The translations under genes and the position numbers were made by a program. Source: Elusimicrobiota bacterium (GTDB taxonomy: Bacteria; Elusimicrobiota; Elusimicrobia; UBA1565; UBA9628). Taken from it: 64,000 bases of DNA. The DNA lies in contig JACRDP010000010.1 in assembly GCA_016212855.1 (NCBI GenBank), positions 42,954 to 106,953 on the forward strand. The letters run 5' to 3'. Shown one piece after another: positions 42,279 through 55,550 of this stretch; within the stretch, counting starts at the first letter, position 1; every line of letters begins with the position of its first letter. The notes beneath the pieces are model-generated. The model ran no database searches. It worked only from the letters and a program-made list of their open reading frames with translations, and was not told where the DNA came from.

Positions 42279-43861
42279 AGCGGCTGCTTCTTCTGGCCCT
42301 TATGGCATGGGTGGTTCCGGCCATCGCTTATGCGGGGCCGTGTCCAAGCTCGGATGGGTCGCCTTGCTTGCCTGATGATGGAACACAGAAAGATTTGCTG
42401 AGAAGGATCCGAGAAGTGCAGGCCCTGAACAATGAGATTCGCTCTGCCGCCATCGTTTGGCAAAATTCTCGCGCCGGAACGGATAGAGCGGGGGAGCTCT
42501 CCAAGTATGAGGCGTACGCGCAAGCGAAAAACACATTCGATGACAAATCGGTAAAACTCATCGATCAAATTCAGAAAGCCTACAATGTCGCGCCTACGCA
42601 CACATCCGGATTAACTCGAAAACCCTCGGGGACAAACCGCACTATGGCTTGGATGGATGGCCTCCCAGCGCAATGGAAACCTCGGTTCAGCAACAATGAT
42701 GACGATTATCGTGCGATTCAGACCAAGAGCGGGACTCATTACGCATCCGTGAATACGGCGGCTTATGCCGGCGCAACGCTTCCCAATGGCGATGTCGTGA
42801 TCGGCGCGTCATTGCTGTCAGAGGCATTGAAGGATCAGAATCCCGGCATCATCGCTCAAGCGATATATCATGAGGGGCGCCATTTCGCCGATTTGGTGAC
42901 TACCGGCTGGCGGTCGATTGAGCAGGGCGAAGTTGCTGCCTATACAGCGGTAGCGGCGCATGATGATACCTTTAAGCTGTCAGAGGGCTGGCTCCAACTC
43001 AATGCAGCCAATCTCTTAGCCAATCAGGCTGCGCTGGATGCCGGCTCGGAACGCGCGTATGCCATCACCGCCAAAGATGAGAAATTGATCAAGGGCATCA
43101 TCGACCAAGAAAAAGCTAGGCAGGGAGATTTCGCTAAATATTATGCGATTCTCAAGGCGGAGGTGACGAAGACCACCGCTGAGCGCGAGCATGATGAACT
43201 CCTGAAAAAAACAATCGCCTCAATAGCTCTCCGATCATGCGCCAATCCCGGAAGCGTGACACAAGATGAGCTGAACGCTCTCGATAAGCCTTACCGGAAA
43301 GATTTCTACCGAGGAGAGTTCCCCAAGGGACTGGAGGGGGCAGACGGCACCGGGTATTGTACCGAACCGTATTTTTATTTGGGCGACATGGCGGGGGCGA
43401 ACCCTGACGCGTTGCGCCTCAAATCGTTGTCAACGCCCAGGCAGCCTGCAATCTCTCCACCTCTGCCTGAGCAGCATGTTCCGGCCGTGCCGGTGGATCT
43501 CGCTGCGCTGACGATCTCGAACATGCGCCGCTTGGCGATCCTCGCATGCGATTATCCTGGAAGGCTAACTTACGCAGATACAACCGGGGCGATCAAGACG
43601 GCGTATGTTCCGCTTCCAGCCGCGCAGAGTGCAGGATCGGATCTAACCGGATGTGCGCGTTTTGTCTATGATGCTCTCGTTTTCTTTGTTCCTCAGGGCT
43701 ACCGGGGGGCGCTGACGCCTGACTGGCTTCGCGAACGAGCCCTGGCCTACAGTCCGCCAACTCCTCCGCGAGGCGAACCTGGCGGGGGACGCGGCAGCCC
43801 TCCTAGAAAGGATCCTTGCTACTGGGACCCTGGGTGCAACTGCCGTGTCTGCGAGGATTGA
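42275..43861 (+). CDS. hypothetical secreted protein with HExxH-like motif (HEGRH) and Cys-rich C-terminus
   Basis: Signal peptide MKRLLLLALMAWVVPAIAYA. AIYHEGRHFADL. C-terminal DPCYWDPGCNCRVCED. ATGA overlap with the upstream gene. Confidence 0.5.
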   Translation: MKRLLLLALMAWVVPAIAYAGPCPSSDGSPCLPDDGTQKDLLRRIREVQALNNEIRSAAIVWQNSRAGTDRAGELSKYEAYAQAKNTFDDKSVKLIDQIQKAYNVAPTHTSGLTRKPSGTNRTMAWMDGLPAQWKPRFSNNDDDYRAIQTKSGTHYASVNTAAYAGATLPNGDVVIGASLLSEALKDQNPGIIAQAIYHEGRHFADLVTTGWRSIEQGEVAAYTAVAAHDDTFKLSEGWLQLNAANLLANQAALDAGSERAYAITAKDEKLIKGIIDQEKARQGDFAKYYAILKAEVTKTTAEREHDELLKKTIASIALRSCANPGSVTQDELNALDKPYRKDFYRGEFPKGLEGADGTGYCTEPYFYLGDMAGANPDALRLKSLSTPRQPAISPPLPEQHVPAVPVDLAALTISNMRRLAILACDYPGRLTYADTTGAIKTAYVPLPAAQSAGSDLTGCARFVYDALVFFVPQGYRGALTPDWLRERALAYSPPTPPRGEPGGGRGSPPRKDPCYWDPGCNCRVCED

Positions 43862-43889: not shown

Positions 43890-44666
43890 TCAGAGAAGGA
43901 GTAGCGCGACCAAGCCGAGCGCGACGCGGTAAAGCGCGTAGGGCTTCAACCCGCCTTTGGGCAGGAAGCGCAGGAACGCTCCGACGGCGGCAAATCCTAC
44001 CGCGCCCGACACGGCGAGGCCGAGAACGAAGGGCCCCGTGACGTCGGCCGGTCCCAGATGGCGCAGCTTGAGCAGCGCCGCGCCCGCGACGATCGGCGTG
44101 GCCATCAAGAAAGACAGTTCCGCGGCCTGAGACCGTTCCAGGCCGAGCAGCAGCGCCGCGCTCATCGTGGCACCCGAGCGGGACACGCCCGGCATCAGCG
44201 CCAGGGCCTGGGCGCACCCGACGAGAAGCACGGTCCGCACACCGGCCGTGCGCCAGGCGCCGGCGGCGCCCTCGCCGCGGCGATCGGCCCACCACATGAC
44301 GCCGCTGAAGGCGATCAGGCAGGCGCCGATGCGGCGCGGGTCGCGGAAAGCGTGCTCCGCGGTTTTCTCGAGGGCCAGCCCGGCGACGACCGCGGGCACG
44401 GTCGCCAGAACCAGCAGGCCGAGCGTGCGCGCCTCCTCTCCGCGCGGATCGCGCAGCGCGCCCGTGAACAGCCTCAGCCAGGTCTCGCGGTAGTACACGA
44501 GCACCGCGGCCAAAGTCCCCAGATGAAGCGCCACGTCGAACGTCAGGCCCGGGTCCGGGAAGGAGAAGAAGAGAGGCGCCAGGGCCAGGTGCGCCGAGCT
44601 CGACACGGGCAGGAATTCCGTGAGGCCTTGGACGGCCCCGAGCAGCGCGGCCTGGGCGTAGGTCAT
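43890..44666 (-). CDS. uppP: undecaprenyl-diphosphate phosphatase
   Basis: Start MTYAQAALLGAVQGLTEFLPVSSSAHL, canonical BacA/UppP N-terminus. 8 TM segments. Confidence 0.85.
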   Translation of the reverse strand: MTYAQAALLGAVQGLTEFLPVSSSAHLALAPLFFSFPDPGLTFDVALHLGTLAAVLVYYRETWLRLFTGALRDPRGEEARTLGLLVLATVPAVVAGLALEKTAEHAFRDPRRIGACLIAFSGVMWWADRRGEGAAGAWRTAGVRTVLLVGCAQALALMPGVSRSGATMSAALLLGLERSQAAELSFLMATPIVAGAALLKLRHLGPADVTGPFVLGLAVSGAVGFAAVGAFLRFLPKGGLKPYALYRVALGLVALLLL

Positions 44667-46300
44667 TCCGCGGCTACGCGGGGAACCAACGCCATGTCGC
44701 GGCGCACGGGCTTGCCCACCGCGCCGATCCACGGGAGGTTGCGCGCGCCGGCCTGCAGAAGAAACTTGCGCTGCTCGAGGTCGGCTTTGCGCACCGAGCT
44801 GGTCGAATCGAGCTCGTCGATGTGCTTTCCCGAGTAGTCATCGTGAATGATGCGCAGCTGGTAGCCGTTCGCCGGTCCCGCGGGCATGGTCAGGCTGAAA
44901 TTCCCGCCGGTGCCGGTTTCCGTCGAGGCGACCTCGTTGTCCTCCGCGTCGACGAACACCAGCTTGACGCCGAAGACGCCCCTGGTCGTCAACAGATCGT
45001 ACACGGTCCCTTCGAACGTCCACTGCGGCCCCTTGGGCTTGACGGGCGCCGGCGGCGCCGCGGGCTTGGGCTTGGGTTTCAACGTCGGCGCGGGAGGCTT
45101 CGGGCGCGGCGCGACGTTGAAGGTCGCCGTCGGACGCGAAGGATCGGGCACGGGCGTCGAGGGGACAGGGGCCGATGGTGTCACCGGCGCCGGAGCCGGC
45201 GCGACGATCGGCGCGGGCGGCGCCGGGGGCGGGGCGACGGGAGCCGGAGCCGCGACCGGCGGCGTATCGCTCCCGGGCTTGGGCGGCTCGACGGTCCGGC
45301 CCACCGACGGAGCGGGCAGGTTCGTCGGCGCCGGCCCGTCGCTCGGCGCCGCCGGCATGGGGGAGACGGGAGCCGCGTTCGGGTCTCGCGGCGTGATCGG
45401 GTCGTCGATCGAGGGAGTCACCGTGGCCTCCCCGGCGGCGCGCTTGCCGAAGGGAGACGCGCCCGTGGGCCGCGCGGCGCCTTGCGGCTCGGTGCGCAGC
45501 ATCATGAAGATCGCGCCCATGCTGAGCAGGCCGAGAGCGCCGCCGGCGAGAGCCGCGAGCTGGACGGCCGACTGCCGCCCCTTTTTCGGCGGCTCGGTCG
45601 GAGCGGGCTTGCTCGCGGGCGCGCGTTCGGGCTTCGGCGCCGGCCGTTCCGCCGGCGGGCGCCGCGCCTCCGCCTCGACGACGATTTCCTTGGTCGAGGT
45701 CGGCAGGAATAGAGCGGGGGGAGGCGCTTCGTCGGCCGCTTCCTCGACTTCGGGCGCGGGCTCGGGCGCAGCCGCCGCGGAAGGGAGAGACACGCCTTTC
45801 GGTTGCTCCTCCTCCTCCTCCTCCGGTACGGGAGGAGGCGCCGGATCGAGCTCGGTCTTCTTGGGCGGGAGCTTCTTCAGCGGCTCGACCGGAGCTTTCT
45901 CCGCCTCGGACTTGGGCTTGGCTTCGGGAAGTTTCGCGGCCGGGGGCGGAGGGGGAGGAGCGAAGAGGCTCTCGCCCGGCTTGGGGCCCAGGTTTCGGGC
46001 GACGGGCAAGGCGAAGGGATTCTCGTCCCCCGGCGGCGACGCGAACGCGCCGGAGCCGCCTTTGGTCGGCTTCACGGGAGGCGGCGCCTCTCCGCCGCGC
46101 GCCGGCGGCAGGGAAAACCCGGCCTGAGCGGGCGGAGGCGCGGCCGGCTTGAGCGGCGGTTTTGAAGCCGGCGGCTCGGCTTTCTTCCCGGCCTCGGGGG
46201 CCTTCCCTTTTTTATTGGCGACGAAATCCCAACCGCAGGCCTGGCAGAGCCGGGCCTCGTCGGGAGCTGTGGCGCCGCAGCTCGGGCAACGGGAGATCAT
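44663..46300 (-). CDS. zinc-ribbon membrane protein with Pro-rich regions and C-terminal carboxypeptidase-regulatory-like beta-sandwich
   Basis: CPSCG...CQACG N-terminal zinc ribbon. Pro/Ala-rich linker. One TM (LAALAGGALGLLSMGAIFMML). A second Pro-rich tract. C-terminal GTVYDLLTTRGVFGVKLVFVD...GNFSL. Confidence 0.55.
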   Translation of the reverse strand: MISRCPSCGATAPDEARLCQACGWDFVANKKGKAPEAGKKAEPPASKPPLKPAAPPPAQAGFSLPPARGGEAPPPVKPTKGGSGAFASPPGDENPFALPVARNLGPKPGESLFAPPPPPPAAKLPEAKPKSEAEKAPVEPLKKLPPKKTELDPAPPPVPEEEEEEQPKGVSLPSAAAAPEPAPEVEEAADEAPPPALFLPTSTKEIVVEAEARRPPAERPAPKPERAPASKPAPTEPPKKGRQSAVQLAALAGGALGLLSMGAIFMMLRTEPQGAARPTGASPFGKRAAGEATVTPSIDDPITPRDPNAAPVSPMPAAPSDGPAPTNLPAPSVGRTVEPPKPGSDTPPVAAPAPVAPPPAPPAPIVAPAPAPVTPSAPVPSTPVPDPSRPTATFNVAPRPKPPAPTLKPKPKPAAPPAPVKPKGPQWTFEGTVYDLLTTRGVFGVKLVFVDAEDNEVASTETGTGGNFSLTMPAGPANGYQLRIIHDDYSGKHIDELDSTSSVRKADLEQRKFLLQAGARNLPWIGAVGKPVRRDMALVPRVAAE

Positions 46301-46342
46301 CTGGTGCCGCTCTCAGCGAGCGGCGGGACGATTCTACTTTTT

Positions 46343-49300
46343 TTACGCGACGGAAGAGTCGTCGTCGGAGCCGTCGCGCTTGCGGCGGCGGCGAGTCATG
46401 CCGACAAGGTACGGCAGTTCGGAGTGATAGACCAGGTAGCCGATCGAAACGGCGGCGGCGCCGCGCAAAGTCAAGGACAGAAGATCGCGCCAGTCCTTGC
46501 CCTCGGCGGGACGATCCTCGGGCAGTTCATATTTATGGCGCGCGGGCGGCATATAGGTGTAGCTGAAATCCTCTTCCTCGGGCTTGACGCCGGGCGCGAC
46601 CGGGCGCGCCGGGTTGACCGCTCCGCCCGCGACGCGCGCGACCGGCGGGACTTTGTCGTCGGCGGACGGGGCCGTCAAGACCGGAGTGCGCGCGGCCAGC
46701 CGAGGCAGGCCCGGGCTGTCGCCCGCGCCCAGCCCCTTCATCGGGACGGGGGACCAGCCCGTGCCCTGGTCCTTGCGATCGCGCGAGCCGTCGAAGCGCG
46801 ACGCTAAGGAGGGAACGGGGTCATGCCCGCCGCCGACCGTCGTTTGATTGGGAATCGCGCGCGCGCCGCGGTTGACCGGGATCACGGGGCCGCCGCCGGC
46901 GAGGCCTTCGGGCACGGCCGGGCTCACGACCGGGCCGCTCTTGGGAGCGCCGCCTCCGCCGCCGGGAGCGCCGTCACCGCCGGCTCCGCCGCCGCCGCCG
47001 TCGGCTCCGCCGCCGCCTCCACCGCCACCGCCTCCTCCACCGCCGCCGGCGTCGCCGAAGCCGCGGAAGTTGGGAGCCTTGGGCCCCTTGCCGCCGCCGC
47101 CTTCTCCGCCGCCGCCTCCGCCGCCGGCGACGGAGCCGCCGTTGCCGCCCGAGCCGGGGCCGCCGTTGCCGACCGGGCCGGGGGGCGGAGGCTCGGGCTG
47201 GGGCTCGAGTTTGAGTTCGGGCTCGGGCTGGGGCTCGATCTTCTGTTCAGGAATCGGATCGGGCTTCGTCTCCGCAACCGTGTCGTCCGCTGGATCGGGT
47301 GTCCGTTCGGCGGGCACTTCGATATCCGTGTTGAAGGGCACTGCCCGGCGCCGAGGGATGACGACAGGAGGCGGGGGAATCACTCTCGCGGCCAAGCTCA
47401 TGTAGCCGCCCTCGCCGATGCGCCGGAGGGCCTTGCGCCAGATGCTTTCCTTGAGCTTCGGCTCCACTTCCACCTTCTCCTTGACCTTCTCGCGGACGCG
47501 TTCCCCGGCCTTCAGGTCCAACTCGCCTTTGCCCTTGACCTTCACGGGCTCCTCGATGAGCTTGACCTTCCGGACCTCTTCGCCCTTCATGAATTCGAAT
47601 TCGAGCTGTTCGCCGGGCTTGGCGCCCTCGACCTTCGCCTCCACGATCTCCGTTTCGCCGGGCTTGGCTTCGACCACTTTCGCTTCGATGGGCTTGGCTT
47701 CCACCGGCTTCTCGCCCGGCTTGGCTTCCACCGGTTTGCCTTCGACCGGCTTCGCTTCGACCGGCTTCGCTTCGACCGGCTTGGCATCCGCCACCTTGGC
47801 TTCGACGGGTTTCGCCTCGACCGGCTTTCCGTCGAGCGGCTTGGCTTCCACCGGCTTGCCTTCAAGCGGGTTCACTTCGAGCGGCTTCGCTTCCAGCGGC
47901 TTGGCCTCGAGGGGTTTGGTCGCGGAAGCCAACTCGCTGCCCGCCGTTTCGGCGGCCGGGCCGTTGGACTCGACTTTCGTGTTGGCCTTGACGTCGCCGG
48001 TCTTGAGCTCCGGGCGCTCGATCCCGCCGCCCTTGGCGTCTTTGATCCATTCGTTCTTCAGTTTCTCGAGCCCTTCTCCCGCGCGCTTCCACCAGGGGCC
48101 TTTCGCTCCGGCGGGGGCTTCGACTCCCGCTACCGTGCCCTCCCCTTTGGCCACGCCGCCTCCGCCGCCCGCGCCTTCGACGACGGCCGGCGCGCCTTTG
48201 CCGACCGCCGGCGTGACGGGGCCCTGAGCGCCCGCCCCGTTGACGTTGGCCTGCCCCGGATTCTTCGCCCCGAAATCCAACTCCAACTGCACCGGCGGCT
48301 TGGCCGCGACGGCCGCGCCGCCGCCGGGCGTCGCTTTGGCGACGGGCTCGGCCTTCGGGGCGCGGAAGCGGTCGATGAGGCTCTTGCCGAACTTGTAGCC
48401 GGGCATTTCCTTGCCCATCGACTTCGCCCCGAAGAAGAGCATGCTGAGGTCCACGACCGCGTTGCCCAGCGCGTCGGTCCCCTCGGGCGTGCCCGCGTGC
48501 TGGATCGCGTCGTTGACGTGGGCGCCGGTGGCGAGAACGAACGGAGCCACGACGCTCGTGATGGCCAGCCCGCGGATAACGCTCACGCCCTTTCCGGCGA
48601 GGGTCACCGTGCGGCCCAGGCCGGTCGAGCCGGCCTTGGTCAGCGCCGCGCCCTTGGCCCCGATATTGGCCGCGAACTTGCCGAGCGCCGAGAACGCGTA
48701 CGGCATGGCCCAAGTGAGCGGGTTGGTCAGCATCTGGCCGACGGCCTCGCCGGCCGAGGCGAAGAAGCCGGCGACGGCGTGCCCGTTGCGGGAGAGCTGC
48801 TTGCCGTAGGTGCCCGCGCCGAACTCGGCGAGCGTGAAGTACGCCTCCAAGTCGGTCGGCGGCATCTTCATCGCCTGCTCGTAGTACAGCGGCGTGAGCT
48901 CGGCGGTGACGCCCATCGCCTCGAGGTGCTCGGGGCGCAGTTCCAGGGCGCGCTTGTCGAGGAGCTTGCGCGCGCCCGGGGTCAGAAGCTTCAGGAACTT
49001 GCGCGCCCACTCCTCGAACTTCTCCGGTTCCTTCTCGCCGTCGGGCTTGGTGCCCGCGATCGAGTAGCACCAGGCGGGGTTGCGCGACTTCGTGGCGATG
49101 TTGTTGAGCAGGGCCTGGTCGCCGCTGACGTTGCTTTCGACGACGTTGACGATGCCGGTATAGACGAAATTGCTGACGTAGTTCGAGGCGTCGAGCACCT
49201 GCTTCAGGACGGGGACGTCGACGATCTTCTGCGCCAGCCAGAGGGCCGGCGCCGAGCCGGGGATGGACTTCGAGGTGGTCGGCTTCTCCCAGCTGTTCTG

Positions 49301-51664
49301 CTTCGCCCAGCTTTCCGGCGCGGTCAGGTCGAAGGACTCGCGGTGCATCGGGTAATGCGTGACCCGGTCCTTGCTGGCGAACCAGTTTCCCGGATTCCAG
49401 CCGCCGCCGCCGTAGGCGTCGACGTCCTTGGTGAAGGTCTCCTCGCGGACGTTGCGCTGCCCGCCGCCGAGGTACTCGAAGGCCACCGTCGCGGCCTTCA
49501 GCTGGGACTTGGGATCGTGCGCGTTCTCCATGGCCCAGTCTTTGTCGTAGCGCACCGGATGCTGGACCAGCAAAGCGACGCCGCCGGAGCGTCCCGGCTC
49601 CGCGGTGCGGTCGCCGAAGAACGCGGTCAGGACCGTGCGCTCGCCGTTGGCCTTCTGCAGCACCATCGTGATGGCCTTGCGCGCGCCGGGGGCGATGGTC
49701 ATGCGGATCGCGGGCTCGCCGTTGTACTCGGCCAAGCCGTCCATGACCGCGTTGTAGTTCAGGAAGTCGGCGAAGGCCGCGGCTTTGCGGCCGTCGGCGT
49801 CGGCCTCGCCGATCGCGGCCAGGACTTCCTTGGCCAGCGCCAGCGCCGCCGCCTTGCGCTTGTCGGCGTTGGTCGCCGGGGGAAGCCCCGTGAGGTCCAC
49901 GTCCCAGCTCACGACCTGGCCGTCCTTGAGGAGCTGCTTGACGTGAGCGGACGCCTTCTTCAGAGTGGTGCCGTCGTGATTGACCCGGAACTCCATCTCG
50001 AGGGTGCCGTCGGCGTTGACGTGGTCGACCTGCATCCGGTAAGGCGAATTGTTCGCGTCGAGGAACTTGACCTCGCGGTTGCCCTTGGTCAAAGTGGCTT
50101 CGAAGCGGGGGCCGTCGCCGCCCAGCTGACGGATGATGGCGTCGCCGGTTTTATCGTTGCCCCGCTCGTAGCGCTCGACCTTGCCCTTCAGGTCGTAGGT
50201 CGTCTGCTCGGAGATGTTGGTCGCGGGATCGTAGGTCTGGCGCGTGAGGCGATGACCCGCGCCGTCGAAATTCTCGATGACCTGCGCGAGGACCACCCGC
50301 TGGCCGTCGAAGTTCTGATGGATGATCTCCTTGGCGCCGTTGGCCTTGGTGGTGATGCGGATGATGGCCGACATGTCCGCGGTCGAGGCTTCATACACGG
50401 ACGACTTGTCGGCCTTTTCGAAACGCAGGCCGACGAAGTCCGTGCCCTCGTGCTTGAAGGCCACCACCTCGCCGCCGCGCGAGCCCGCTCCCTGCGGGTA
50501 GGTCTCCCACGGCGAGAAGCGCGTGCCGATGGGCGCCTTGCGCACGTTTTCGCGGAGGTAGGCGCGGTAGGTCCACAGCACCGCGGCGAACTCGGCGAGC
50601 TCGGGGTTGAACTTGCCGATCTTGTCGAGGCGCTCGGTGATGTCGTCGTCGGACGTGGGGAAGGGTGTGGTGATGCCGACCGAGCGGGCCGAGTCCGCCT
50701 CGACCTTGATCAGATGGGCGACGAGCGCGTCGATGGACTTGAAGCTGTCCGGGTCGCCGCGCATCGCCGAGACGGCGCCTCGCCCGCTTTCCCAGAGCTG
50801 GAGGAGGTTCGCGCCGCGCTCGGCGGCGAAGTCCGGCTCCCCGCCCGGCAGCCGCTTGCGGAATTCGTCCAGCGCGCGTCCGGCCGCGAAGGTCAGGCCC
50901 GCGTAGTCGACCTGCACGGGGATCGCGGCGGTGACGACGGCGGTGTTGTTCGCCCGTACGGGCGCGGGAGTGGGCCGGTCGAGGTCGCGGGCCTTGGCGG
51001 CGTTGGTGCCGGGGGCGCCCTTGGGCGTGTACGACCAGGTCGCGGCGACGGACTTGCGCACCTCACGGAAATCCACGGCGACGCCGCCGCGGCCGGCCGG
51101 AACGCCGTAGCGCTTGGTCAGGTTGTCGAAGATCGTCTGGGCCTGGGAAGGATCGGCCGCGGCTTTATCGAGGTCTCCCAAGAGCGCGTCGACCGCGAAA
51201 AGCGGATCCGCCGCCGCCGTGGTCGCGGGCGCGTTTCCGGCCGCGACGACCGCCTTGCGCACCGCCGGGGTGAAGGCCGCGCCGCCGCCGGTCAGGCGCA
51301 GGCTTCGCGTGATGACGCTCGAGGTCCGGACCAGACGCTCATCGAGAATCTTGCGGTCCGAAGCCGGCATCTGGAGCGAGGCCAAACGGGACTTGAGCTC
51401 CTGGCGGCGGGCGTCGAGCGCGGCGAACGTCGAGGGCTGTTCGCCCTTGAGATGCTTGAGCAGCGCCGTCTCGAGGCCGGCCAGCTCGGCGGCCATGCGC
51501 AGGCCTTCGGGGCTCGTCGGCGCGCCGCCGATGGCCGAGGCCGTCTGGGGGACGGCGGGGACCGCGACGGCGGCGGTGCCTTCGCCGGCGCGGGCCGACA
51601 GGGAGGCGGCGAGCGCGAACGCGCACGCGGCGAGGAGGGGTACTCGGCGGCTCTGGGTCCTCAT
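46343..51664 (-). CDS. giant (1773 aa) secreted, C-terminally anchored surface protein with tandem KPxEA repeats and poly-Gly tracts
   Basis: Signal peptide MRTQSRRVPLLAACAFALAASLSARA. About 20 tandem (K/E)P(V/L)EA pentapeptides. G-rich low complexity. C-terminal TM plus RRRRKR tail. Confidence 0.65.
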   Translation of the reverse strand: MRTQSRRVPLLAACAFALAASLSARAGEGTAAVAVPAVPQTASAIGGAPTSPEGLRMAAELAGLETALLKHLKGEQPSTFAALDARRQELKSRLASLQMPASDRKILDERLVRTSSVITRSLRLTGGGAAFTPAVRKAVVAAGNAPATTAAADPLFAVDALLGDLDKAAADPSQAQTIFDNLTKRYGVPAGRGGVAVDFREVRKSVAATWSYTPKGAPGTNAAKARDLDRPTPAPVRANNTAVVTAAIPVQVDYAGLTFAAGRALDEFRKRLPGGEPDFAAERGANLLQLWESGRGAVSAMRGDPDSFKSIDALVAHLIKVEADSARSVGITTPFPTSDDDITERLDKIGKFNPELAEFAAVLWTYRAYLRENVRKAPIGTRFSPWETYPQGAGSRGGEVVAFKHEGTDFVGLRFEKADKSSVYEASTADMSAIIRITTKANGAKEIIHQNFDGQRVVLAQVIENFDGAGHRLTRQTYDPATNISEQTTYDLKGKVERYERGNDKTGDAIIRQLGGDGPRFEATLTKGNREVKFLDANNSPYRMQVDHVNADGTLEMEFRVNHDGTTLKKASAHVKQLLKDGQVVSWDVDLTGLPPATNADKRKAAALALAKEVLAAIGEADADGRKAAAFADFLNYNAVMDGLAEYNGEPAIRMTIAPGARKAITMVLQKANGERTVLTAFFGDRTAEPGRSGGVALLVQHPVRYDKDWAMENAHDPKSQLKAATVAFEYLGGGQRNVREETFTKDVDAYGGGGWNPGNWFASKDRVTHYPMHRESFDLTAPESWAKQNSWEKPTTSKSIPGSAPALWLAQKIVDVPVLKQVLDASNYVSNFVYTGIVNVVESNVSGDQALLNNIATKSRNPAWCYSIAGTKPDGEKEPEKFEEWARKFLKLLTPGARKLLDKRALELRPEHLEAMGVTAELTPLYYEQAMKMPPTDLEAYFTLAEFGAGTYGKQLSRNGHAVAGFFASAGEAVGQMLTNPLTWAMPYAFSALGKFAANIGAKGAALTKAGSTGLGRTVTLAGKGVSVIRGLAITSVVAPFVLATGAHVNDAIQHAGTPEGTDALGNAVVDLSMLFFGAKSMGKEMPGYKFGKSLIDRFRAPKAEPVAKATPGGGAAVAAKPPVQLELDFGAKNPGQANVNGAGAQGPVTPAVGKGAPAVVEGAGGGGGVAKGEGTVAGVEAPAGAKGPWWKRAGEGLEKLKNEWIKDAKGGGIERPELKTGDVKANTKVESNGPAAETAGSELASATKPLEAKPLEAKPLEVNPLEGKPVEAKPLDGKPVEAKPVEAKVADAKPVEAKPVEAKPVEGKPVEAKPGEKPVEAKPIEAKVVEAKPGETEIVEAKVEGAKPGEQLEFEFMKGEEVRKVKLIEEPVKVKGKGELDLKAGERVREKVKEKVEVEPKLKESIWRKALRRIGEGGYMSLAARVIPPPPVVIPRRRAVPFNTDIEVPAERTPDPADDTVAETKPDPIPEQKIEPQPEPELKLEPQPEPPPPGPVGNGGPGSGGNGGSVAGGGGGGGEGGGGKGPKAPNFRGFGDAGGGGGGGGGGGGGGADGGGGGAGGDGAPGGGGGAPKSGPVVSPAVPEGLAGGGPVIPVNRGARAIPNQTTVGGGHDPVPSLASRFDGSRDRKDQGTGWSPVPMKGLGAGDSPGLPRLAARTPVLTAPSADDKVPPVARVAGGAVNPARPVAPGVKPEEEDFSYTYMPPARHKYELPEDRPAEGKDWRDLLSLTLRGAAAVSIGYLVYHSELPYLVGMTRRRRKRDGSDDDSSVA
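47628..47925. repeat. tandem 15-bp repeats (about 20 copies, degenerate) inside the giant CDS
   Basis: Units like GGCTTCGACCGGCTT / GGCTTCCACCGGCTT encode the KPxEA repeats on the minus strand. Confidence 0.6.
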
Positions 51665-51842
51665 GGCACTCAGCGTACTCCTGAAAGGCCCATCGCGTCA
51701 GGGGCCCTGGGCCTATCAGAGCCTAGGCCTTTGGGCCTAGACCGCGATAGTATAGCCGCGCTACCCGCCCCGTCAAGGTCCCTTTTCAACAAAATCGGAA
51801 GGGACATTTCCTCGCCTTACGGCTCGGTCAGCCTCCTTCCTG

Positions 51843-52748
51843 CTAAGAGGGTTTAAGGGTGGCCAGGCGCTCCTCGAAACGGGCCTGGGCCTTCGATGCG
51901 GGACCCTCGTCCTTGAGCAGGTGGTACTTGCTCGCCTTGGGGGCCAGGATGACGAGGAACTTGGCGGGCACGCCCGCGCGCCGGTACGCGGCGACCTTAT
52001 GATGGCCGTCGAGCAGGAAGCCGGCCATGAAGGAGTGCAGATTCTTGATCTGACCTTTTTTGACCGCTTCGGGAATGCCGCGCTGGTACATGCCCAGCAT
52101 GAGCACGCGCGGGCGGTCTCCGTTCTGGATCATCTGCTGATAGATCTTGATGTACTCTTCTTTCAGCGCCGCGCGGGGCACCAGAGGAATCGCGAAGTCG
52201 TACTGCTTCTCCATCACGCCCGACTCGGGGTGGCGGAACACGCGCGGGCGCTGGCCCTCATAGTGCTCCCAGCCGGACAGCAGGCCCTCTTCCTTGGGGT
52301 CTTCGATGTCCCAGAGCTCCATGAACTCGCTCTGGAAGAAATAGGACGCCTCGTCGTCGGAGTCGTACGGACCGGAGAGATTCATCGAGGTCTCGAACAC
52401 GAGGTACTCGCCCTTTTCCATGAGTTCGAGGAGGGGGGCGAGTTCCTGGACAAGGGACTCGTCGACCGGGCGCGGAAGCTGGATGGTCTTGGGCAGATTG
52501 GCGATCTTCTTGTTCGTGGGCAGGTGCGGATCCTGCAGCATCTTGAACCAGAAGTGGCAGGTGTTGCAGTCGTTGCCGACCTCGAACTTGCGGGCGCCGT
52601 TGACCTCGAGGTAAAGTGAGTTCGACTCGCCGTGACGCTTCTCGATGGCGATCTTGAAGAAGCCCTTCCCGTTGGGCACCTTCACCTTCACGACGCCTTC
52701 GGCGACGGTGGCGACTTCCAGCTTGGGCACCTTGGTTTCAGAGCTCAT
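51843..52748 (-). CDS. hypothetical protein
   Basis: Start MSSETKVPKLEV is preferred over the upstream Met. TACAAT 6 nt upstream of this ATG. Confidence 0.45.
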   Translation of the reverse strand: MSSETKVPKLEVATVAEGVVKVKVPNGKGFFKIAIEKRHGESNSLYLEVNGARKFEVGNDCNTCHFWFKMLQDPHLPTNKKIANLPKTIQLPRPVDESLVQELAPLLELMEKGEYLVFETSMNLSGPYDSDDEASYFFQSEFMELWDIEDPKEEGLLSGWEHYEGQRPRVFRHPESGVMEKQYDFAIPLVPRAALKEEYIKIYQQMIQNGDRPRVLMLGMYQRGIPEAVKKGQIKNLHSFMAGFLLDGHHKVAAYRRAGVPAKFLVILAPKASKYHLLKDEGPASKAQARFEERLATLKPS

Positions 52749-52895
52749 GGTTTGATTGTAGCTGATCACGCGCCGCTCGTCCAGGGATCGTCGCGGCCGT
52801 CCCGCGAGGGAGTCTTGACGTCCGAGGGCGTTGTGTTTCCAGCAATCCAGCAATAAGGCCGTAACAGCCCTCCACTATATTAGGAGGGCATGTCC

Positions 52896-55349
52896 ATGGA
52901 TGAATGGGACGACCGCGCCCTGCGCGAGATCAACAGCCTCGACGCCGCCCGTTTGGCGATCCGCGGCGCGTTGGCCACCATCCGCGACCTGCAGGACCAG
53001 AACGCCGCGCTGAAGGGGCAGGCGTCGGACGAAAGCGCCAAGCGCAAGCTTCTCGAGAGCCGGATTTCAGAGATGGACGCGCGTCTGGCGCAATGGCAGG
53101 AGCAGGCCGCGAAATGGGAGAAGGACAGCGCGGCGCGCGAAGCGCACCTGGCGCGCTGGAAGACCGAGGCGCGCGCGGAGGTGCGCGCCGAGGAGCGCGC
53201 GCGCGTCGACGCCGACCGCGTGCGCACCGAGGAGACCCTGGCCCGCCTGCGCGCCGATCTCGCCGCGATGGGCAAGGCCCACCAAAGCCGCGAGGGCGCT
53301 TGGCTCGAGCTCAAGCGCGGCCTCGAGGCGCGCGACGCCGAGATCGCCTCCCTGCGCGCCGATAAGCTCGACATCGTCGCCAAGGTCAAGCGCGACGCCG
53401 AGCAGCTCGAGATCCTGCGCGAGGCGCGCGACCGCGAGATGGGCCAGGCCGCGCACCTGCGCGAGCTCGAGATCGCCGACAATGACCGCGAGATCGCGGC
53501 GCTCAAGGCCGAGCTCGAGGAAAACAAGATGGCCCTGGCCGCCGTGGCCCAGGACCGGGAGCTCTCGCTCAAGGCGCGCGAGGAGGAGATGGTCAAGGCC
53601 TTCGCGCTCAAGGAGGCCGATCTCGTCCGCCGCTATCAGGCGCGCGAGGCCGAACTCCAGGCGCGCTGGTCCGAGCTCGAGACCGGTCTGTGGGCCAAGA
53701 CCAAGGAATCGCGCGCCAAGCTCGACGCGTCCGTGCAGCAGCAGTTCGAGGAGCGCGCGCGCCAGATCGCCGATCGCGCGAAAGAAGTCGAGGACCTGCT
53801 CGCCCGCCGCTCGCGCGAGCTGGCCGACGACCACGAGAAGCGCTGCGCCGAGGCCGAGGCGCATTACGCGGCCGACGAGCGCCGGCTGCACGCGTCCTGG
53901 GCCGAGAAGGAACAGCGCCTGCTCGCCCGCATCGAGGCGGAGCAGACGCAGGAGCACCTGACCCTCCAGGCCGCCTGGGCCGACCGCCACAAGATTCTCG
54001 AGGCCGAGCACGCCGAGCGCCTGCGCCAGGTCCAGGCCAAGATCGAGGAGCTCGAAGCGCAGGGCCGCCGCGACCACGCCCGCATGCTGGAAGAAGCCGC
54101 GGTCAAGGACGCCGAGCGCGTCCGCCAGCAGGACGACTTCGTCGCGCGCAAGGGAGCGGAGCTCGACAAGGAGCGCGCCGAGCGCCTCACCGAGCTGGCC
54201 CAGCGCGCTCGCGATCTTGAGGACGAAGCCAAGCGCCGCGAGGAGACCCGCCAGAACGCCTACCTTTCGCGCACGGCCGCGCTCGAAGCGGAGCATGAAC
54301 TGCGCCGCGGCCGCCTGCTCGAGGAGCACCGCAAGACCGTCGAGGCGGAGAAGTTCTCTCTGTCCGAGCAGTACGACCAGCGCCAGCGCGCGCTCGACGA
54401 GGCGCACCGGGCGAAAATCGCCGAGACCGAGCGGGCCGCCCGCGCGCTCGCCGAACAGCACCAGGCCTGGAAGGAGTCCCTGCGCGAGGAGTTCCTGCGC
54501 AAGGAGAAGGACCTCGACTCGCGCTGGGCCGTGCGCGAGGCCGAGTTCGTGGCGCGTTACGAGACCGCGCTGGAAGACCAGCGCAGGACGTTTACCGGAG
54601 AGGCGATCGAGGGCCGCTCGCGCCTCGAGGCGCAGCGGCGCAAGATCGAGGACGAGTCGCTCACTCGCGAGAAGCGGCAGCACGTCGAAACCCAGCGCCG
54701 CGAAGCCGAGGCGCTACTCAAGCACTCGCAGGAATTGTCCGCGCGCCAAGCCGCCCACGACGCACGGCTCGCCGAACTGCGCCTCGCGCACGACGAGAAT
54801 CTGCGCATGGTCCGCGAGCGGGCCTTCGAGGACCTCGCGCGCGAGCGCGCCGGGCTGCAGAAGGACCTGGCCGGCCTGCAGGAGCGCCTCGCCGCCGCGC
54901 AGGCCGAGAGCGACCGCGGGCGCCTGGCCGACGCGACGCACGCGAAGTCGCTCGAGACGCGCGTCGCCGCGCTCGAATCGGAGCGCCGGGCTCTCGATCA
55001 GCAACTGGCCTCGCTGAATAGAGAGTGCGAGGCGCTGCGCGCCGCCGTCGCCGAGCGCGACCGCCTGCGCGACGTCGAGCGCGCGCGCCTGGCCGAGGAG
55101 GCGAAGCTCGGCGCCGCGGCCGAATTCGCGCGCATCCTCAATGAAACGGAGCGCGACCGCGCCCAGGGGCTCGAGGCGCGTCGTGTCGAGCTCGAGAAGA
55201 CCCTATTCTCGCGCCGCCGCGCGCTCGAGGAGGCGCTCGCCGAGCGCGGCCGCGCCCTCGACATCAAAGAGCAGCGCATCGAGGAAGAGCGAGCGCGGCT
55301 CGATGAAGCGAGGGCGCAGGGCTCCCCGCCCGATAAGCCCTCCGCCTGA
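52896..55349 (+). CDS. large coiled-coil protein (A/E/R/L-rich, about 818 aa)
   Basis: GGAGG 8 nt upstream of the second ATG (MDEWDD). The sequence is almost entirely heptad-like charged repeats (AREAEL..., ELEA...). No enzymatic motif. Confidence 0.6.
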   Translation: MDEWDDRALREINSLDAARLAIRGALATIRDLQDQNAALKGQASDESAKRKLLESRISEMDARLAQWQEQAAKWEKDSAAREAHLARWKTEARAEVRAEERARVDADRVRTEETLARLRADLAAMGKAHQSREGAWLELKRGLEARDAEIASLRADKLDIVAKVKRDAEQLEILREARDREMGQAAHLRELEIADNDREIAALKAELEENKMALAAVAQDRELSLKAREEEMVKAFALKEADLVRRYQAREAELQARWSELETGLWAKTKESRAKLDASVQQQFEERARQIADRAKEVEDLLARRSRELADDHEKRCAEAEAHYAADERRLHASWAEKEQRLLARIEAEQTQEHLTLQAAWADRHKILEAEHAERLRQVQAKIEELEAQGRRDHARMLEEAAVKDAERVRQQDDFVARKGAELDKERAERLTELAQRARDLEDEAKRREETRQNAYLSRTAALEAEHELRRGRLLEEHRKTVEAEKFSLSEQYDQRQRALDEAHRAKIAETERAARALAEQHQAWKESLREEFLRKEKDLDSRWAVREAEFVARYETALEDQRRTFTGEAIEGRSRLEAQRRKIEDESLTREKRQHVETQRREAEALLKHSQELSARQAAHDARLAELRLAHDENLRMVRERAFEDLARERAGLQKDLAGLQERLAAAQAESDRGRLADATHAKSLETRVAALESERRALDQQLASLNRECEALRAAVAERDRLRDVERARLAEEAKLGAAAEFARILNETERDRAQGLEARRVELEKTLFSRRRALEEALAERGRALDIKEQRIEEERARLDEARAQGSPPDKPSA

Positions 55350-55550
55350 CGCGAGTTATCCCCAACACTTTCAGCGTTGGGAAACGCTGGGGAGAACGCC
55401 CGTGAACTTGGAAAGAGACCTCCATGTTCCCGGATTTTTTTGCCAGGTCTGAATATCTCGCCAGCTCTGACGACGTCACATGAAGAATATCCGGCGTCTC
55501 GTGCCCGCAAAATCCCGCGTTTTTTAAAAAAATATCCTTAATCTGCAAGG

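What the first reader, a model, noticed from the sequence alone, without database searches (positions are those of the whole stretch)
44663..55349. Cluster of a giant repeat-bearing anchored surface protein, a zinc-ribbon/Pro-rich membrane protein and a divergently encoded 819-aa coiled-coil protein
- The 1773-aa ORF has a signal peptide, a long unique N-region, about 20 tandem KPxEA pentapeptides, poly-Gly tracts (GGGGGGGGGGGGGGADGGGGGAGG...), and a C-terminal TM helix followed by RRRRKR. This is a sortase/exosortase-like topology but without LPXTG or PEP motifs.
- Immediately downstream, and probably co-transcribed, is a protein with an N-terminal CxxC..CxxC zinc ribbon, one TM, two Pro-rich spacers and a transthyretin/CarboxypepD_reg-like C-domain.
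- Divergent from the upstream hypothetical gene is an 819-aa almost purely coiled-coil A/E/R/L protein, reminiscent of bacterial intermediate-filament-like proteins.
- None of these has an obvious characterised homologue. Together they look like an envelope-spanning structural/adhesive assembly.
Basis: partly seen in the sequence, partly recalled or inferred. Interest (0 to 1): 0.65.

Follow-up and report, generated by a model that had tools for sequence, protein, structure and literature searches.

The report
Elusimicrobiota-specific variable anchored envelope protein cluster
The four genes are real, and related Elusimicrobiota (an uncultivated phylum) keep them in the same order. Their centre is a giant exported, membrane-anchored protein with conserved ends and a hypervariable middle. 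None of the genes belongs to a described family, so this is a well-defined new family set of unknown function.

Summary
The window is chromosomal DNA of an Elusimicrobiota MAG, about 67% GC.

- **Giant protein (1773 aa).** It has a signal peptide, a confidently modelled 1,070-aa multi-domain head and a roughly 460-aa disordered linker carrying the KPxEA repeats. A conserved 210-aa juxtamembrane module, which begins with a poly-Gly tract, precedes a C-terminal hydrophobic helix and an RRRR tail.
- **Where it sits.** A family member lies between the 301-aa gene and the zinc-ribbon gene in 53 of 80 species-level Elusimicrobiota genomes. These proteins range from about 470 to about 2,030 aa. The ends are conserved; the middle is replaced or diverged beyond DNA recognition, even between genomes whose flanking genes are 90-97% identical.
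- **Sorting signal.** The tail matches no known sorting-signal model.
- **301-aa protein.** It is the most conserved gene in the cluster, and occurs without the giant. Its model is confident (pLDDT 91) but has no match among solved structures.
- **Coiled-coil protein.** It is a kinase-less relative of 1,776-2,448-aa coiled-coil histidine kinases.

Best reading: a membrane-tethered, fast-evolving envelope protein that is an accessory to a conserved envelope-associated core. The "assembly" idea is only partly supported.

The parts
46343..51664 (-). Giant 'slot' protein gene, 1773 aa. Founding member here of an Elusimicrobiota-only family.
   Evidence: Intact ORF with GC3 of 0.89. It has 6 close homologues and 67 representatives at the profile level; every one that carries a source name is Elusimicrobiota. 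A family member sits in the same slot in 53 of 80 species genomes.
51587..51664 (-). Signal peptide, aa 1-26 (MRTQSRRVPLLAACAFALAASLSARA). The LAAC string resembles a lipobox, but Cys14 lies too close to the N-terminus for a confident lipoprotein call.
   Evidence: Kyte-Doolittle peak of 1.65 at aa 8-26. Residues P9-A19 are invariant among homologues.
50537..51511 (-). N-terminal all-helical domain, aa 52-376. It includes the invariant YTPxGAPGTNxxKAxxL motif (aa 212-228, DNA 50981-51031), which lies in a loop modelled with low confidence.
   Evidence: AF2 model helices 26-350 (protein aa = model + 26), with pLDDT below 50 at model residues 186-231. Invariant columns are listed.
49265..50482 (-). 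Beta-rich part of the head. A run of beta-hairpins at aa 395-589 forms a single-layer sheet of the OspA/Rhs/MORN type. Two helices follow, then a second beta domain at aa 653-800.
   Evidence: AF2 pLDDT mostly above 90. The only fold matches, all weak, are OspA, Rhs shells and MORN repeats, with TM-scores normalised to the query of at most 0.14.
48365..49249 (-). C-terminal helical domain of the head, aa 806-1100. It holds the family-wide GAGTYG and NPL motifs and long Gly/Ala-rich amphipathic helices at aa 963-1086.
   Evidence: Hydrophobicity reaches TM grade here (1.95), but in homologues it is only 0.95-1.54, so a conserved TM is unlikely.
46985..48364 (-). Low-complexity linker, aa 1101-1560. 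It carries about 20 KPxEA pentapeptides (DNA 47661-47910), a Pro-rich stretch, two QLEFEF-type short motifs, and most of the poly-Gly tract (DNA 46948-47149). That tract runs on to about aa 1572, into the next part, and in the family alignment it opens the conserved module.
   Evidence: The poly-Gly tract is present in nearly all family members.
46484..46984 (-). Conserved juxtamembrane module, aa 1561-1727. After the end of the poly-Gly tract, its motifs are GGGPVIPVNRG, GGHxPxPSLAxRFDGS, GAGDSPxLPRL and EDFSYTYMxPARHKYELP.
   Evidence: 67-70% identical in relatives whose head mid-region is only 30-35% identical. It aligns across 27 diverse members, including the roughly 470-490-aa minimal forms.
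46343..46483 (-). C-terminal hydrophobic helix with family signature (…AAxxxGYLxxHSxLPYLxG) followed by TRRRRKR and a short acidic tail; the range includes the stop codon.
   Evidence: Complete slot proteins end with this tail, apart from one divergent case (L064) and genes broken by the assembly (L020, L023, L038). A pattern scan of about 1.3 Mb of fetched loci found it only in slot proteins. No NCBIfam model matches it.
44663..46300 (-). Zn-ribbon / Pro-rich / single-TM / beta-sandwich protein, 545 aa. Zn ribbon at aa 4-23 (46232-46291), TM at aa 250-268 (45497-45553), Ig-like domain at aa 418-494 (44819-45049).
   Evidence: Orthologues follow the slot gene, or directly follow the 301-aa gene, in 31 loci. 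22 of 24 assessable loci with a giant also have it, against 8 of 19 without a giant (Fisher p = 7e-4, not corrected for phylogeny).
51843..52748 (-). 301-aa cytoplasmic protein, the most conserved gene of the cluster. Motifs: GNDCxTCHFWFK, WEHYEG, GDRPR, LDGHHKxAAYRRAG.
   Evidence: 121 homologues at 53-98% identity; every one that carries a source name is Elusimicrobia. AF2 pLDDT 90.8, pTM 0.90. No PDB fold match (best E 0.4). No Pfam hit for any of 40 members at E below 0.2.
52890..55349 (+). 819-aa proline-free helical (coiled-coil-type) protein, transcribed divergently. It has a conserved N-terminal motif, WDxxxxxxIxxLDAARLAIRGAxATIRDLQ.
   Evidence: It is 37-40% identical over about 600 aa to 1,776- and 2,448-aa proteins that end in HATPase_c. 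It is present divergently upstream in 53 of 72 assessable loci.
43890..44732 (-). UppP/BacA (undecaprenyl-diphosphatase) gene, the last gene of the minus-strand run. Its true start is probably near 44669, abutting the Zn-ribbon stop codon.
   Evidence: Pfam BacA, E 3e-74, matching residues 28-275 of the ORF. It holds the same position in L001, L004 and L007.
51749..51776 (-). Sigma-70-like promoter match in the 178-bp gap upstream of the giant gene. A second match upstream of the 301-aa gene lies at 52755-52783 (-).
   Evidence: 10 of 12 and 9 of 12 hexamer matches. Four sites were found where 0.5 are expected. This is a consensus match only.

Best explanation
The region is a conserved gene neighbourhood found only in Elusimicrobiota, set among cell-envelope genes.

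**The giant protein.** It is most likely a Sec-exported envelope protein anchored in the inner membrane by its C-terminus. After signal-peptide cleavage, the folded 1,070-aa head, the roughly 460-aa disordered Pro/Gly/Lys/Glu linker and the conserved 210-aa juxtamembrane module all lie outside the cytoplasm. The C-terminal helix acts as a stop-transfer anchor, and the poly-Arg tail stays in the cytoplasm.

**Family design.** Family members keep constant ends and a replaceable middle. The constant parts are the signal peptide with the first ~230 aa, and the poly-Gly/juxtamembrane module with its anchor. The head and linker between them are lost, swapped or diverged beyond recognition among close relatives. 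That pattern is expected for a part exposed to outside ligands, phages or competitors. I therefore read the giant as a tethered, fast-evolving envelope or surface-interaction protein that is an accessory to a more conserved core.

**The core.** It comprises the cytoplasmic 301-aa protein, the bitopic Zn-ribbon/TM/Ig-like protein and UppP. The Zn-ribbon protein is the most plausible direct partner of the giant's conserved membrane-proximal module. The divergent coiled-coil gene is a kinase-less version of a giant coiled-coil histidine kinase. It may couple the locus to signalling in other lineages.

**Shown versus inferred.** Shown: the anatomy, the family limits, the synteny census and the conserved-ends/variable-middle pattern. 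Inferred: the topology, exposure to the outside, the partnerships and the function.
For: **Anatomy.**

**Topology.**
- The minimal family members (about 470-490 aa, L034 and L037) have a signal peptide, no internal hydrophobic segment and the same C-module and anchor.
- Variants with strongly hydrophobic internal regions (L040, L042, L067) appear to have two such regions.
- The window's internal helix is not TM-grade in homologues (0.95-1.54).
- On this count the module lies on the same side as the N-terminus throughout the family.
- The Arg cluster after the last helix fits the positive-inside rule (established knowledge).

**Conserved position.** 53 of 80 species representatives have a family member directly downstream of the 301-aa gene on the same strand. 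Examples that are nearly undetectable by BLAST are L010 and L079, at 22% identity in the head.

**Variable middle.** Where the 301-aa protein is 92-97% identical, the coiled-coil protein is 68-81% and the Zn-ribbon C-domain 77-84%. In the same genomes the giant's aa 376-1100 are only 30-35% identical (L003, L012, L017, L018, L022, L023, L025, L026), while its C-module stays at 67-70%. DNA similarity to these type-B relatives is mostly lost between about 47150 and about 50400-50960, although both flanks align at 69-89%.

**Zn-ribbon association.** Present in 22 of 24 loci with a giant against 8 of 19 without one.

**Envelope context.** Nearby genes encode UppP, an Amidase_2, GT9 heptosyltransferases, PMT_2 glycosyltransferases, SpoIID and SecDF.
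Against: - No experiment or predictor of localisation was available. Hydrophobicity windows are crude.
- The window's own aa 1027-1045 reach TM-grade hydrophobicity (1.95), so one or more internal membrane passes cannot be excluded.
- Elusimicrobiota are diderm (LPS heptosyltransferases are in the window). An inner-membrane anchor does not explain how the head would reach the cell surface.
- Fast divergence could reflect relaxed constraint rather than diversifying selection; no dN/dS was computed.
- The giant's absence from 23 genomes shows the core works without it.
- Much of the synteny could be inheritance within a single phylum.
- Three distant relatives carry enzyme or toxin domains after the shared region, which fits an effector role better.
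Confidence: 0.45

Rival explanations
1. New C-terminal sorting signal. The conserved signature EDYSYTYLxPAxHxYELP, spacer, hydrophobic helix and RRRR would be recognised and processed by a dedicated, still unknown factor, in the way PEP-CTERM is handled by exosortase or LPXTG by sortase. The co-encoded Zn-ribbon/TM/Ig protein is a candidate for that factor. The head would then be released or transferred to the outer envelope.
For: The layout is tripartite (signature, hydrophobic helix, basic cluster), and it is the most conserved part of an otherwise hypervariable protein. It is kept even in the roughly 470-490-aa minimal forms. It co-occurs tightly with the Zn-ribbon protein.
Against: - No known sorting model matches.
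- The signature lies 12-18 residues from the helix rather than abutting it.
- The tail was seen once per locus and only on slot proteins in about 1.3 Mb of fetched loci.
- A profile search returned only contig-end fragments, all named Elusimicrobia where named and most likely of this family. Known sorting signals usually mark many paralogues.
- No protease-like partner is in the neighbourhood.
- The Zn-ribbon protein also occurs without the giant (8 loci).
Confidence: 0.15
2. Polymorphic-toxin or effector scaffold. The shared head would be a delivery or translocation module, and the 301-aa protein a cognate chaperone or immunity factor.
For: Distant relatives fuse the shared region to output domains. 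P0029 carries GGDEF, a Kdo/kinase-like domain and DUF6883; P0042 carries ParBc_2; P0064 carries a Kdo-like domain. DUF6883 has been reassigned to the BECR-Tox3 RNase toxins (bioRxiv 10.64898/2026.08.28.747851). The beta-hairpin run resembles Rhs shells weakly. The head contains long Gly/Ala-rich amphipathic helices.
Against: - The window protein and all slot proteins end in a membrane anchor, not a toxin domain.
- In this family the middle varies, not the C-terminus.
- The 301-aa protein is the most conserved gene (53-98% identity), does not co-vary with the giant and occurs without it, which is the opposite of immunity proteins.
- Rhs-type fold scores are very low (TM at most 0.07), and no RHS or YD Pfam hit was found.
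- P0042 lies in an unrelated neighbourhood.
Confidence: 0.1
3. Transmembrane signalling device. The variable head would sense an envelope or external cue. The Zn-ribbon/TM protein would relay the signal across the membrane, as anti-sigma-type zinc-binding bitopic proteins do. The coiled-coil (histidine-kinase) protein and the 301-aa protein would form the cytoplasmic output.
For: Orthologues of the coiled-coil protein end in HATPase_c, and a response regulator follows one of them in L004. A separate HisKA/HATPase_c gene sits at the same position in L010. The divergent promoter region is shared with the 301-aa gene. The Zn-ribbon protein has the cytoplasmic-finger / TM / periplasmic-domain layout.
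Against: - The window's coiled-coil protein has no kinase domain.
- Presence of the coiled-coil gene is not associated with the giant (38 of 50 loci with a giant against 12 of 19 without, p = 0.37).
- No sigma factor or DNA-binding protein is in the cluster.
Confidence: 0.15
4. Unrelated neighbours. The genes stay adjacent only by shared ancestry within one phylum and have separate functions. The giant would be a lineage-specific filler of low constraint.
For: Housekeeping neighbours (SDR, YtxH, UppP, amidase, M24, MscS, BipA) are syntenic too. The giant and the coiled-coil gene are each lost independently.
Against: The slot, strand and order are kept while the flanking genes rearrange (compare L004-L010). 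The giant's ends are under clear constraint. The giant-to-Zn-ribbon gap is small and the two co-occur.
Confidence: 0.15

Closest known systems
C-terminal sorting signals: LPXTG/sortase, PEP-CTERM/exosortase, GlyGly-CTERM/rhombosortase, PGF-CTERM/archaeosortase
   Same: An N-terminal signal peptide combined with a C-terminal conserved signature, a hydrophobic helix and a basic cluster. The tail is the best-conserved part of a variable exported protein.
   Different: No motif or model match. The signature is separated from the helix, and a second signature (HSxLPYLxG) lies inside the helix. It appears once per locus and on one family only. No sorting enzyme is encoded nearby.
TonB/TolA-type periplasm-spanning tethers
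   Same: A membrane anchor joined to a long Pro/Lys/Glu-rich spacer (the KPxEA repeats recall the EP/KP spacer of TonB and the Lys/Ala/Glu-rich domain II of TolA; this comparison is from general knowledge) and a distal folded domain.
   Different: The polarity is reversed: C-terminal anchor, N-terminal head. There is no TonB_C or TolA domain and no ExbBD/TolQR genes nearby. The linker is far longer than the periplasm is wide.
Very large repetitive surface proteins and adhesins of bacteria (for example the Giant1-5 proteins of Apilactobacillus, PMC12863079, seen)
   Same: Large exported proteins with low-complexity or repeat stalks, rapid evolution and length variation.
   Different: These are diderm hosts. 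The anchor is a C-terminal TM rather than a cell-wall anchor. There are no Ig, cadherin or other adhesin repeats. The head is a unique multi-domain fold.
Rhs/YD-repeat polymorphic toxins
   Same: A run of beta-hairpins with a weak fold match to Rhs shells. Some distant relatives carry C-terminal toxin-type domains.
   Different: No RHS-repeat Pfam hit, no closed shell, no C-terminal toxin and no downstream immunity gene in the window protein. The variable part is the middle, not the tip.
Coiled-coil histidine kinases and bacterial coiled-coil-rich (intermediate-filament-like) proteins
   Same: The 819-aa protein is an uninterrupted helical rod and is homologous to the rod of HATPase_c-bearing proteins.
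   Different: The window protein lacks HisKA and HATPase_c. Filament formation is untested. There is no sequence relation to CreS, FilP or Scy in any search run here.

Membership tests
Sortase substrates (LPXTG) | LPXTG-type motif immediately before the C-terminal hydrophobic helix and basic tail | tested here: not met
   No LPxTG anywhere in the 1773 aa. No NCBIfam hit for the whole protein or for isolated tails.
Exosortase substrates (PEP-CTERM) | PEP motif abutting the TM helix, many paralogues per genome, and an exosortase gene | tested here: not met
   The only PEP strings are at aa 1480 and 1490, about 240 aa upstream of the helix. No model hit. No exosortase in the window. Genome-wide paralogue counts could not be tested.
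Rhombosortase substrates (GlyGly-CTERM) | Gly-Gly motif directly before the C-terminal helix | tested here: not met
   The poly-Gly tract lies about 160-240 aa before the helix. No model hit.
Rhs/YD-repeat proteins | Multiple YD/RHS repeats detectable by profile, forming a closed shell | tested here: not met
   No Pfam hit at E<=0.1. Foldseek matches to Rhs shells have TM at most 0.07.
Rhs/YD-repeat proteins | C-terminal toxin domain with an adjacent immunity gene | tested here: not met
   The C-terminus is a membrane anchor. The downstream gene is the conserved Zn-ribbon protein.
Histidine kinases (for the 819-aa protein) | HisKA/DHp and HATPase_c domains | tested here: not met
   No Pfam hit in the window protein. 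HATPase_c is present in the L004 and L005 orthologues.
Bacterial intermediate-filament-like / coiled-coil-rich proteins | Long heptad-based rod | tested here: met
   No Pro before residue 813; hydrophobic periodicity at 3.5-3.67 residues, z = 3.9.
Bacterial intermediate-filament-like / coiled-coil-rich proteins | Self-assembly into filaments with a cytoskeletal role | not testable with these tools
   Needs in vitro polymerisation or imaging.
CarboxypepD_reg / bacterial Ig-like beta-sandwich (C-domain of the Zn-ribbon protein) | Profile match at or above the Pfam gathering score | tested here: inconclusive
   The window protein scores 20.1-20.4 bits against cut-offs of 32.3 and 27.6. The L004 orthologue scores 31.1 against 32.3.
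Zinc-ribbon domain (Zn_Ribbon_1/DZR) | Two CxxC pairs with a profile match | tested here: inconclusive
   CPSCG...CQACG is present. Pfam gives 20.7 bits against a cut-off of 25. The motif is conserved in orthologues.
ParB/sulfiredoxin-like fold (my own hunch for the 301-aa protein, from the LDGHHKxAAYRRAG motif) | Detectable sequence or fold similarity to ParB/Srx domains | tested here: not met
   No Pfam hit for any of 40 members at E below 0.2. No PDB fold match (best E 0.4). No PDB profile hit.

The most novel reading that the evidence does not exclude
The constant C-terminal module would be a phylum-specific protein-anchoring or sorting signal of a new kind. It comprises the poly-Gly tract, GGHxPxPSLAxRFDGS, GAGDSPxLPRL, EDYSYTYLxPAxHxYELP, a helix containing HSxLPYLxG, and RRRR. 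The co-encoded Zn-ribbon/TM/Ig protein would serve it, and possibly the 301-aa protein, which has no solved-structure match. It would display interchangeable head cassettes on the Elusimicrobiota envelope. That would amount to a new sorting and display system with cassette-like variation.
Probability: 0.12. Interest if true: 0.8.

Novelty: new variant of a known kind. Interest (0 to 1): 0.5.

Why it matters
Elusimicrobiota are almost entirely uncultivated, and little is known about their envelope. This locus yields three undescribed protein families with clear, testable signatures.

- **A variable envelope protein.** Its conserved ends and replaceable middle mark it as a likely point of contact with the outside world, such as phages, hosts, surfaces or competitors.
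- **A bitopic zinc-ribbon partner.** It is tied to the UppP gene of the lipid-carrier cycle.
- **A very conserved 301-aa cytoplasmic protein.** Its confident model has no solved-structure relative.

If the C-terminal module proves to be a dedicated anchoring or sorting signal, it would add a new class to the short list of bacterial protein-sorting systems. If it does not, the result is still a clean definition of phylum-specific families for annotation. Most database copies carry no name, and the named ones are all "hypothetical protein".

Tried and rejected
- **Profile libraries on the four proteins.** Pfam, NCBIfam, PHROGs and PADLOC gave nothing above threshold.
- **PDB sequence and profile searches.** Only low-complexity or designer-repeat noise: B-raf Gly-rich stretches, scFv linkers and designed PPR proteins.
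- **Fold search of the 301-aa model.** No match, so my ParB/Srx idea from the DGHHK..AAYRRAG motif is dropped.
- **Internal transmembrane pass at aa 1027-1045.** Considered, but hydrophobicity there is not conserved in homologues.
- **Lipoprotein reading of LLAAC.** Cys14 is too close to the N-terminus, and the Cys sits at a different place or is missing in distant members. Left open.
- **Profile search with the 75-aa tail.** It returned only five contig-end fragments, most likely of this family, so it says little about other carriers.
- **Exact look-up of the window's giant.** Not on record.
- **Literature searches.** Searches for Elusimicrobia plus coiled-coil, histidine kinase or giant surface proteins found nothing on this family.
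- **Split giant in the complete genome CP096137.1 (L023).** The giant and the coiled-coil gene are both broken into several ORFs there. I read this as indel errors in that assembly, because more than 25 other MAGs have intact ORFs.

Full report
**1. Observation**

The window is about 67% GC. Each has the codon-position GC pattern of genuine genes in this genome, with GC3 of 0.85-0.91.

The details of the giant hold up:
- a hydrophobic N-terminal signal segment at aa 8-26;
- a 15-bp tandem repeat, 16.9 copies, at 47661-47910, which encodes the KPxEA units, and period-3 poly-Gly tracts at 46948-47149;
- a C-terminal hydrophobic helix at aa 1728-1746 followed by RRRRKR;
- no LPxTG, and PEP only far upstream of the helix.

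The zinc-ribbon protein has CxxC..CxxC, one TM (aa 250-268) and a C-terminal beta-sandwich that matches Big_6 and CarboxypepD_reg below threshold. The 819-aa protein is 60% A/E/R/L and proline-free up to residue 813. Its hydrophobic periodicity of 3.5-3.67 residues stands out from shuffles at z = 3.9. The "upstream hypothetical" most likely starts at 52748, giving 301 aa as in its relatives.

**2. Organism and context**

Every homologue that carries a source name, of any of these proteins, comes from an Elusimicrobia/Elusimicrobiota metagenome-assembled genome. The genome-collection loci are titled Elusimicrobia/Elusimicrobiota, apart from a few labelled only "bacterium" and one labelled Candidatus Endomicrobium.

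The window is ordinary chromosome with many envelope genes:
- GT9 heptosyltransferases, which imply LPS and hence a diderm cell; PMT_2 glycosyltransferases; SecDF; SpoIID; an M4 peptidase next to a PorV-like barrel;
- UppP/BacA, Amidase_2, an M24 peptidase, MscS, an SDR and a PilT-like ATPase.

No sortase, exosortase or rhombosortase is encoded in the window.

**3. The giant protein**

*Family size.* A word-indexed search with aa 1-1150 found only six homologues. A full HMMER profile search found 67 cluster representatives, 54 of them at E<=1e-10.

*Structure.* An AlphaFold2 model of aa 27-1120, built on a 55-sequence alignment, is confident (mean pLDDT 84; 663 residues at 90 or above). It shows, in order:
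- a helical domain (aa ~52-376);
- a run of beta-hairpins (aa ~395-589);
- two helices;
- a second beta domain (aa ~653-800);
- a helical domain (aa ~806-1100) with long Gly/Ala-rich amphipathic helices.

*Rest of the protein.* After the head come about 460 residues of low-complexity sequence: the KPxEA repeats, a Pro-rich tract and two QLEFEF-type short motifs. Then comes a conserved module.

**4. The conserved module and tail**

I aligned the last 260 residues of 27 diverse family members. They share this order of elements:
- a poly-Gly tract of roughly 15-30 residues;
- GGHxPxPSLAxRFDGS;
- GAGDSPxLPRL;
- EDYSYTYLxPAxHxYELP;
- a spacer of 12-18 residues;
- a hydrophobic helix containing (Y/F)LxxHS(D/N)LPYLxG;
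- (T/S)RRRR.

Nearly every complete family member ends this way. One (L064) has a divergent hydrophobic, basic end, and three (L020, L023, L038) are broken by assembly problems. No NCBIfam sorting-signal model matches the whole protein (E<=0.1) or eight isolated tails (E<=10).

In about 1.3 Mb of fetched Elusimicrobiota loci, the tail occurs only on these proteins, once per locus. A profile search with the tail returned only five contig-end fragments, most likely of this family. That search was clearly limited in reach.

**5. Synteny census**

I used the 301-aa protein as the anchor and fetched 80 loci from species-representative genomes. I scored them with HMMs for the giant's head, the Zn-ribbon C-domain and the coiled-coil N-terminus.

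| Gene, relative to the 301-aa gene | Present | Absent | Not assessable |
|---|---|---|---|
| Giant-family gene, directly downstream, same strand | 53 | 23 | 4 |
| Zn-ribbon gene, downstream | 31 | 13 | 36 |
| Coiled-coil gene, divergent upstream | 53 | 19 | 8 |

The order coiled-coil <- | -> 301 -> giant -> Zn-ribbon (-> UppP) persists in L010/L079. There the 301-aa protein is 58% identical and the giant's head about 22%.

In L004 and L005 the Zn-ribbon gene follows the 301-aa gene directly. In L007 a 392-aa gene and then a short zinc-ribbon gene follow it. L006 has neither a giant nor a Zn-ribbon gene.

The Zn-ribbon gene accompanies the giant in 22 of 24 assessable cases, against 8 of 19 without the giant (Fisher p = 7e-4, not corrected for phylogeny). 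The coiled-coil gene shows no such association (p = 0.37).

Two conclusions follow. But the giant is an accessory to a more conserved core, not an obligate member of it.

**6. Conserved ends, variable middle**

Slot proteins range from about 470 to about 2,030 aa (ORFs of 493 to 2,225 codons). The shortest (L034, L037) consist of a signal peptide, a short helical stretch, the poly-Gly tract, the module and the anchor. Some variants (L040, L042, L067, P0006, P0027) replace the head with a part containing strongly hydrophobic segments.

The table shows identity to the window's proteins in genomes whose 301-aa protein is 92-97% identical.

| Protein or region | Identity |
|---|---|
| Coiled-coil protein | 68-81% |
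| Zn-ribbon C-domain | 77-84% |
| UppP | 81-83% |
| Giant, C-module | 67-70% |
| Giant, aa 376-1100, "type B" genomes (L003, L012, L017, L018, L022, L023, L025, L026) | 30-35% |
| Giant, aa 376-1100, "type A" genomes (L001, L002, L019) | 57-59% |

At the DNA level, type-B relatives align to the window on both flanks at 69-89%. Most of the similarity disappears between about 47150 and about 50400-50960. This fits cassette-like replacement or extreme divergence of the exposed part. I did not test selection formally.

**7. Topology**

The minimal forms have no internal hydrophobic segment. Variants with strongly hydrophobic internal regions appear to have two of them, though these were not formally counted. 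The window's internal peak (Kyte-Doolittle 1.95 at aa 1027-1045) falls to 0.95-1.54 in homologues.

Across the family, then, the module most likely lies on the same side as the N-terminus, which is outside the cytoplasm. The Arg cluster then lies inside, as the positive-inside rule predicts. This is inference from hydrophobicity alone.

**8. Distant relatives with output domains**

Three relatives that share only the middle of the head continue into other domains:
- P0029: GGDEF, a Kdo/kinase-like domain and DUF6883;
- P0042: ParBc_2;
- P0064: a Kdo-like domain.

A 2026 preprint reassigns DUF6883 to the BECR-Tox3 RNase toxins. This keeps an effector-scaffold reading alive for the wider superfamily. 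These proteins lack the tail, however, and P0042 sits in an unrelated neighbourhood.

A further subfamily of 560-750 aa shares aa ~565-1015 and ends in a different conserved C-terminus (GPWLxSATDNxGR...FVIP).

**9. The 301-aa protein**

It has 121 homologues at 53-98% identity, and every one that carries a source name is Elusimicrobia. It has no signal peptide or TM. Nearly invariant residues include C61, C64, H65, H162, H238, H249 and H250, which may form a metal site.

The AF2 model is very confident (pLDDT 90.8, pTM 0.90). Foldseek found nothing in PDB (best E 0.4). Pfam found nothing better than E 0.2 in any of 40 members.

It is the slowest-evolving gene of the cluster and occurs without the giant. 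That argues against an immunity or chaperone role tied to the giant.

**10. The coiled-coil protein**

Its N-terminal motif and first ~600 residues are shared (37-40% identity) with proteins of 1,776 aa (L004) and 2,448 aa (L005) that end in HATPase_c. In L004 a response regulator follows. In L010 a 2,532-aa rod gene and a separate HisKA/HATPase_c gene occupy the position.

The window's version is a kinase-less form, as are those of its close relatives by their length of about 825-830 aa. The "intermediate-filament-like" idea is neither shown nor excluded. The family's ancestry points to signalling.

**11. Transcription**

Promoter-like sites lie upstream of the 301-aa gene and, separately, in the 178-bp gap upstream of the giant. 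The giant and Zn-ribbon genes are 42 bp apart with no terminator-like site. The UppP ORF overlaps or abuts the Zn-ribbon stop codon. Giant, Zn-ribbon and UppP are therefore plausibly one transcript. This is inference.

**12. Verdict**

My best reading, at confidence of about 0.45, has two parts. The giant is a Sec-exported, C-terminally anchored envelope protein with a replaceable, fast-evolving head on a long disordered tether. It is an accessory to a conserved Elusimicrobiota core made of the 301-aa protein, the Zn-ribbon/TM/Ig protein and UppP.

The rivals remain open: a new sorting signal, an effector scaffold, a signalling device, or unrelated neighbours.

The families are undescribed, so annotation value is real. 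Without a function or experimental access, the interest is moderate.

Noticed in passing
window 41424-41494 (+), with ORFs 41535-42278 and 42275-43861 (+): A strong Rfam match to the 2'-dG-II purine riboswitch aptamer (RF03165, 77.8 bits against a gathering score of 60, E 2e-18). It sits directly upstream of two co-oriented genes for signal-peptide-bearing proteins of 247 and 528 aa, neither with any family hit. The second protein contains an HExxH-like string (HEGRH). The 2.5-kb stretch is only about 56% GC and is absent from relatives, where UppP and Amidase_2 are directly convergent. It looks like an inserted, riboswitch-controlled unit for secreted proteins.
   Followed up: partly
window 60324-60398 (+) and 60384-61988 (-): A tRNA-Asn gene abuts a large serine recombinase gene (Resolvase, Recombinase and Zn_ribbon_recom domains), and GC falls to about 0.60 from 60 kb onwards. 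This is probably the edge of an element integrated at tRNA-Asn.
   Followed up: no
L004:4441-9771(-), L005:2444-9790(-), L010:1-7058(-): Other Elusimicrobiota encode coiled-coil proteins of 1,776 to 2,532 aa at this position. Two of them end in a HATPase_c histidine-kinase domain. They have no signal peptide or TM, which makes them unusually long soluble rod-type kinases.
   Followed up: partly
window 51843-52748 (-): The 301-aa protein gives a very confident AlphaFold2 model (pLDDT 90.8, pTM 0.90) with no Foldseek match in PDB and no Pfam relation. It has a conserved Cys/His set (C61, C64, H65, H162, H238, H249, H250). It is a candidate new fold or metal-binding enzyme restricted to the phylum.
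   Followed up: partly
giant aa 1126-1131 and 1353-1358 (window ~47590-48289); P0001-P0003: Short Q-L-x-F/L-D/E-F motifs (QLEFEF, QLELDF) recur 2-6 times in the disordered linker, but only in the closest relatives (about 57% identity). They may be short linear binding motifs.
   Followed up: no
giant aa 212-228 (window 50981-51031): The motif YTPxGAPGTNxxKAxxL is invariant across homologues, yet it lies in a loop modelled with pLDDT below 50. It could be a processing, modification or binding site.
   Followed up: no
L023 (CP096137.1, complete Elusimicrobiota genome) 11429-16477 and 7428-9985: In this complete genome the giant and the coiled-coil gene are each split into several overlapping ORFs. 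This is most likely indel error in the assembly, since more than 25 other MAGs have intact genes.
   Followed up: no
window 28715-32746 (+) and 32719-33894 (+): A 1,343-aa FTP/PepSY/M4 (thermolysin-like) peptidase gene is followed by a gene for a PorV/UPF0164-like outer-membrane barrel. The same pair recurs near the cluster in L007, L008 and L010.
   Followed up: no
window 55350-55890: A 540-bp gap lies between the coiled-coil gene and a YtxH-like ORF (~55889-56164, +). It contains a perfect 14-bp-stem hairpin at 55551-55582 and a promoter-like site at 55802-55830. No Rfam family matches.
   Followed up: no
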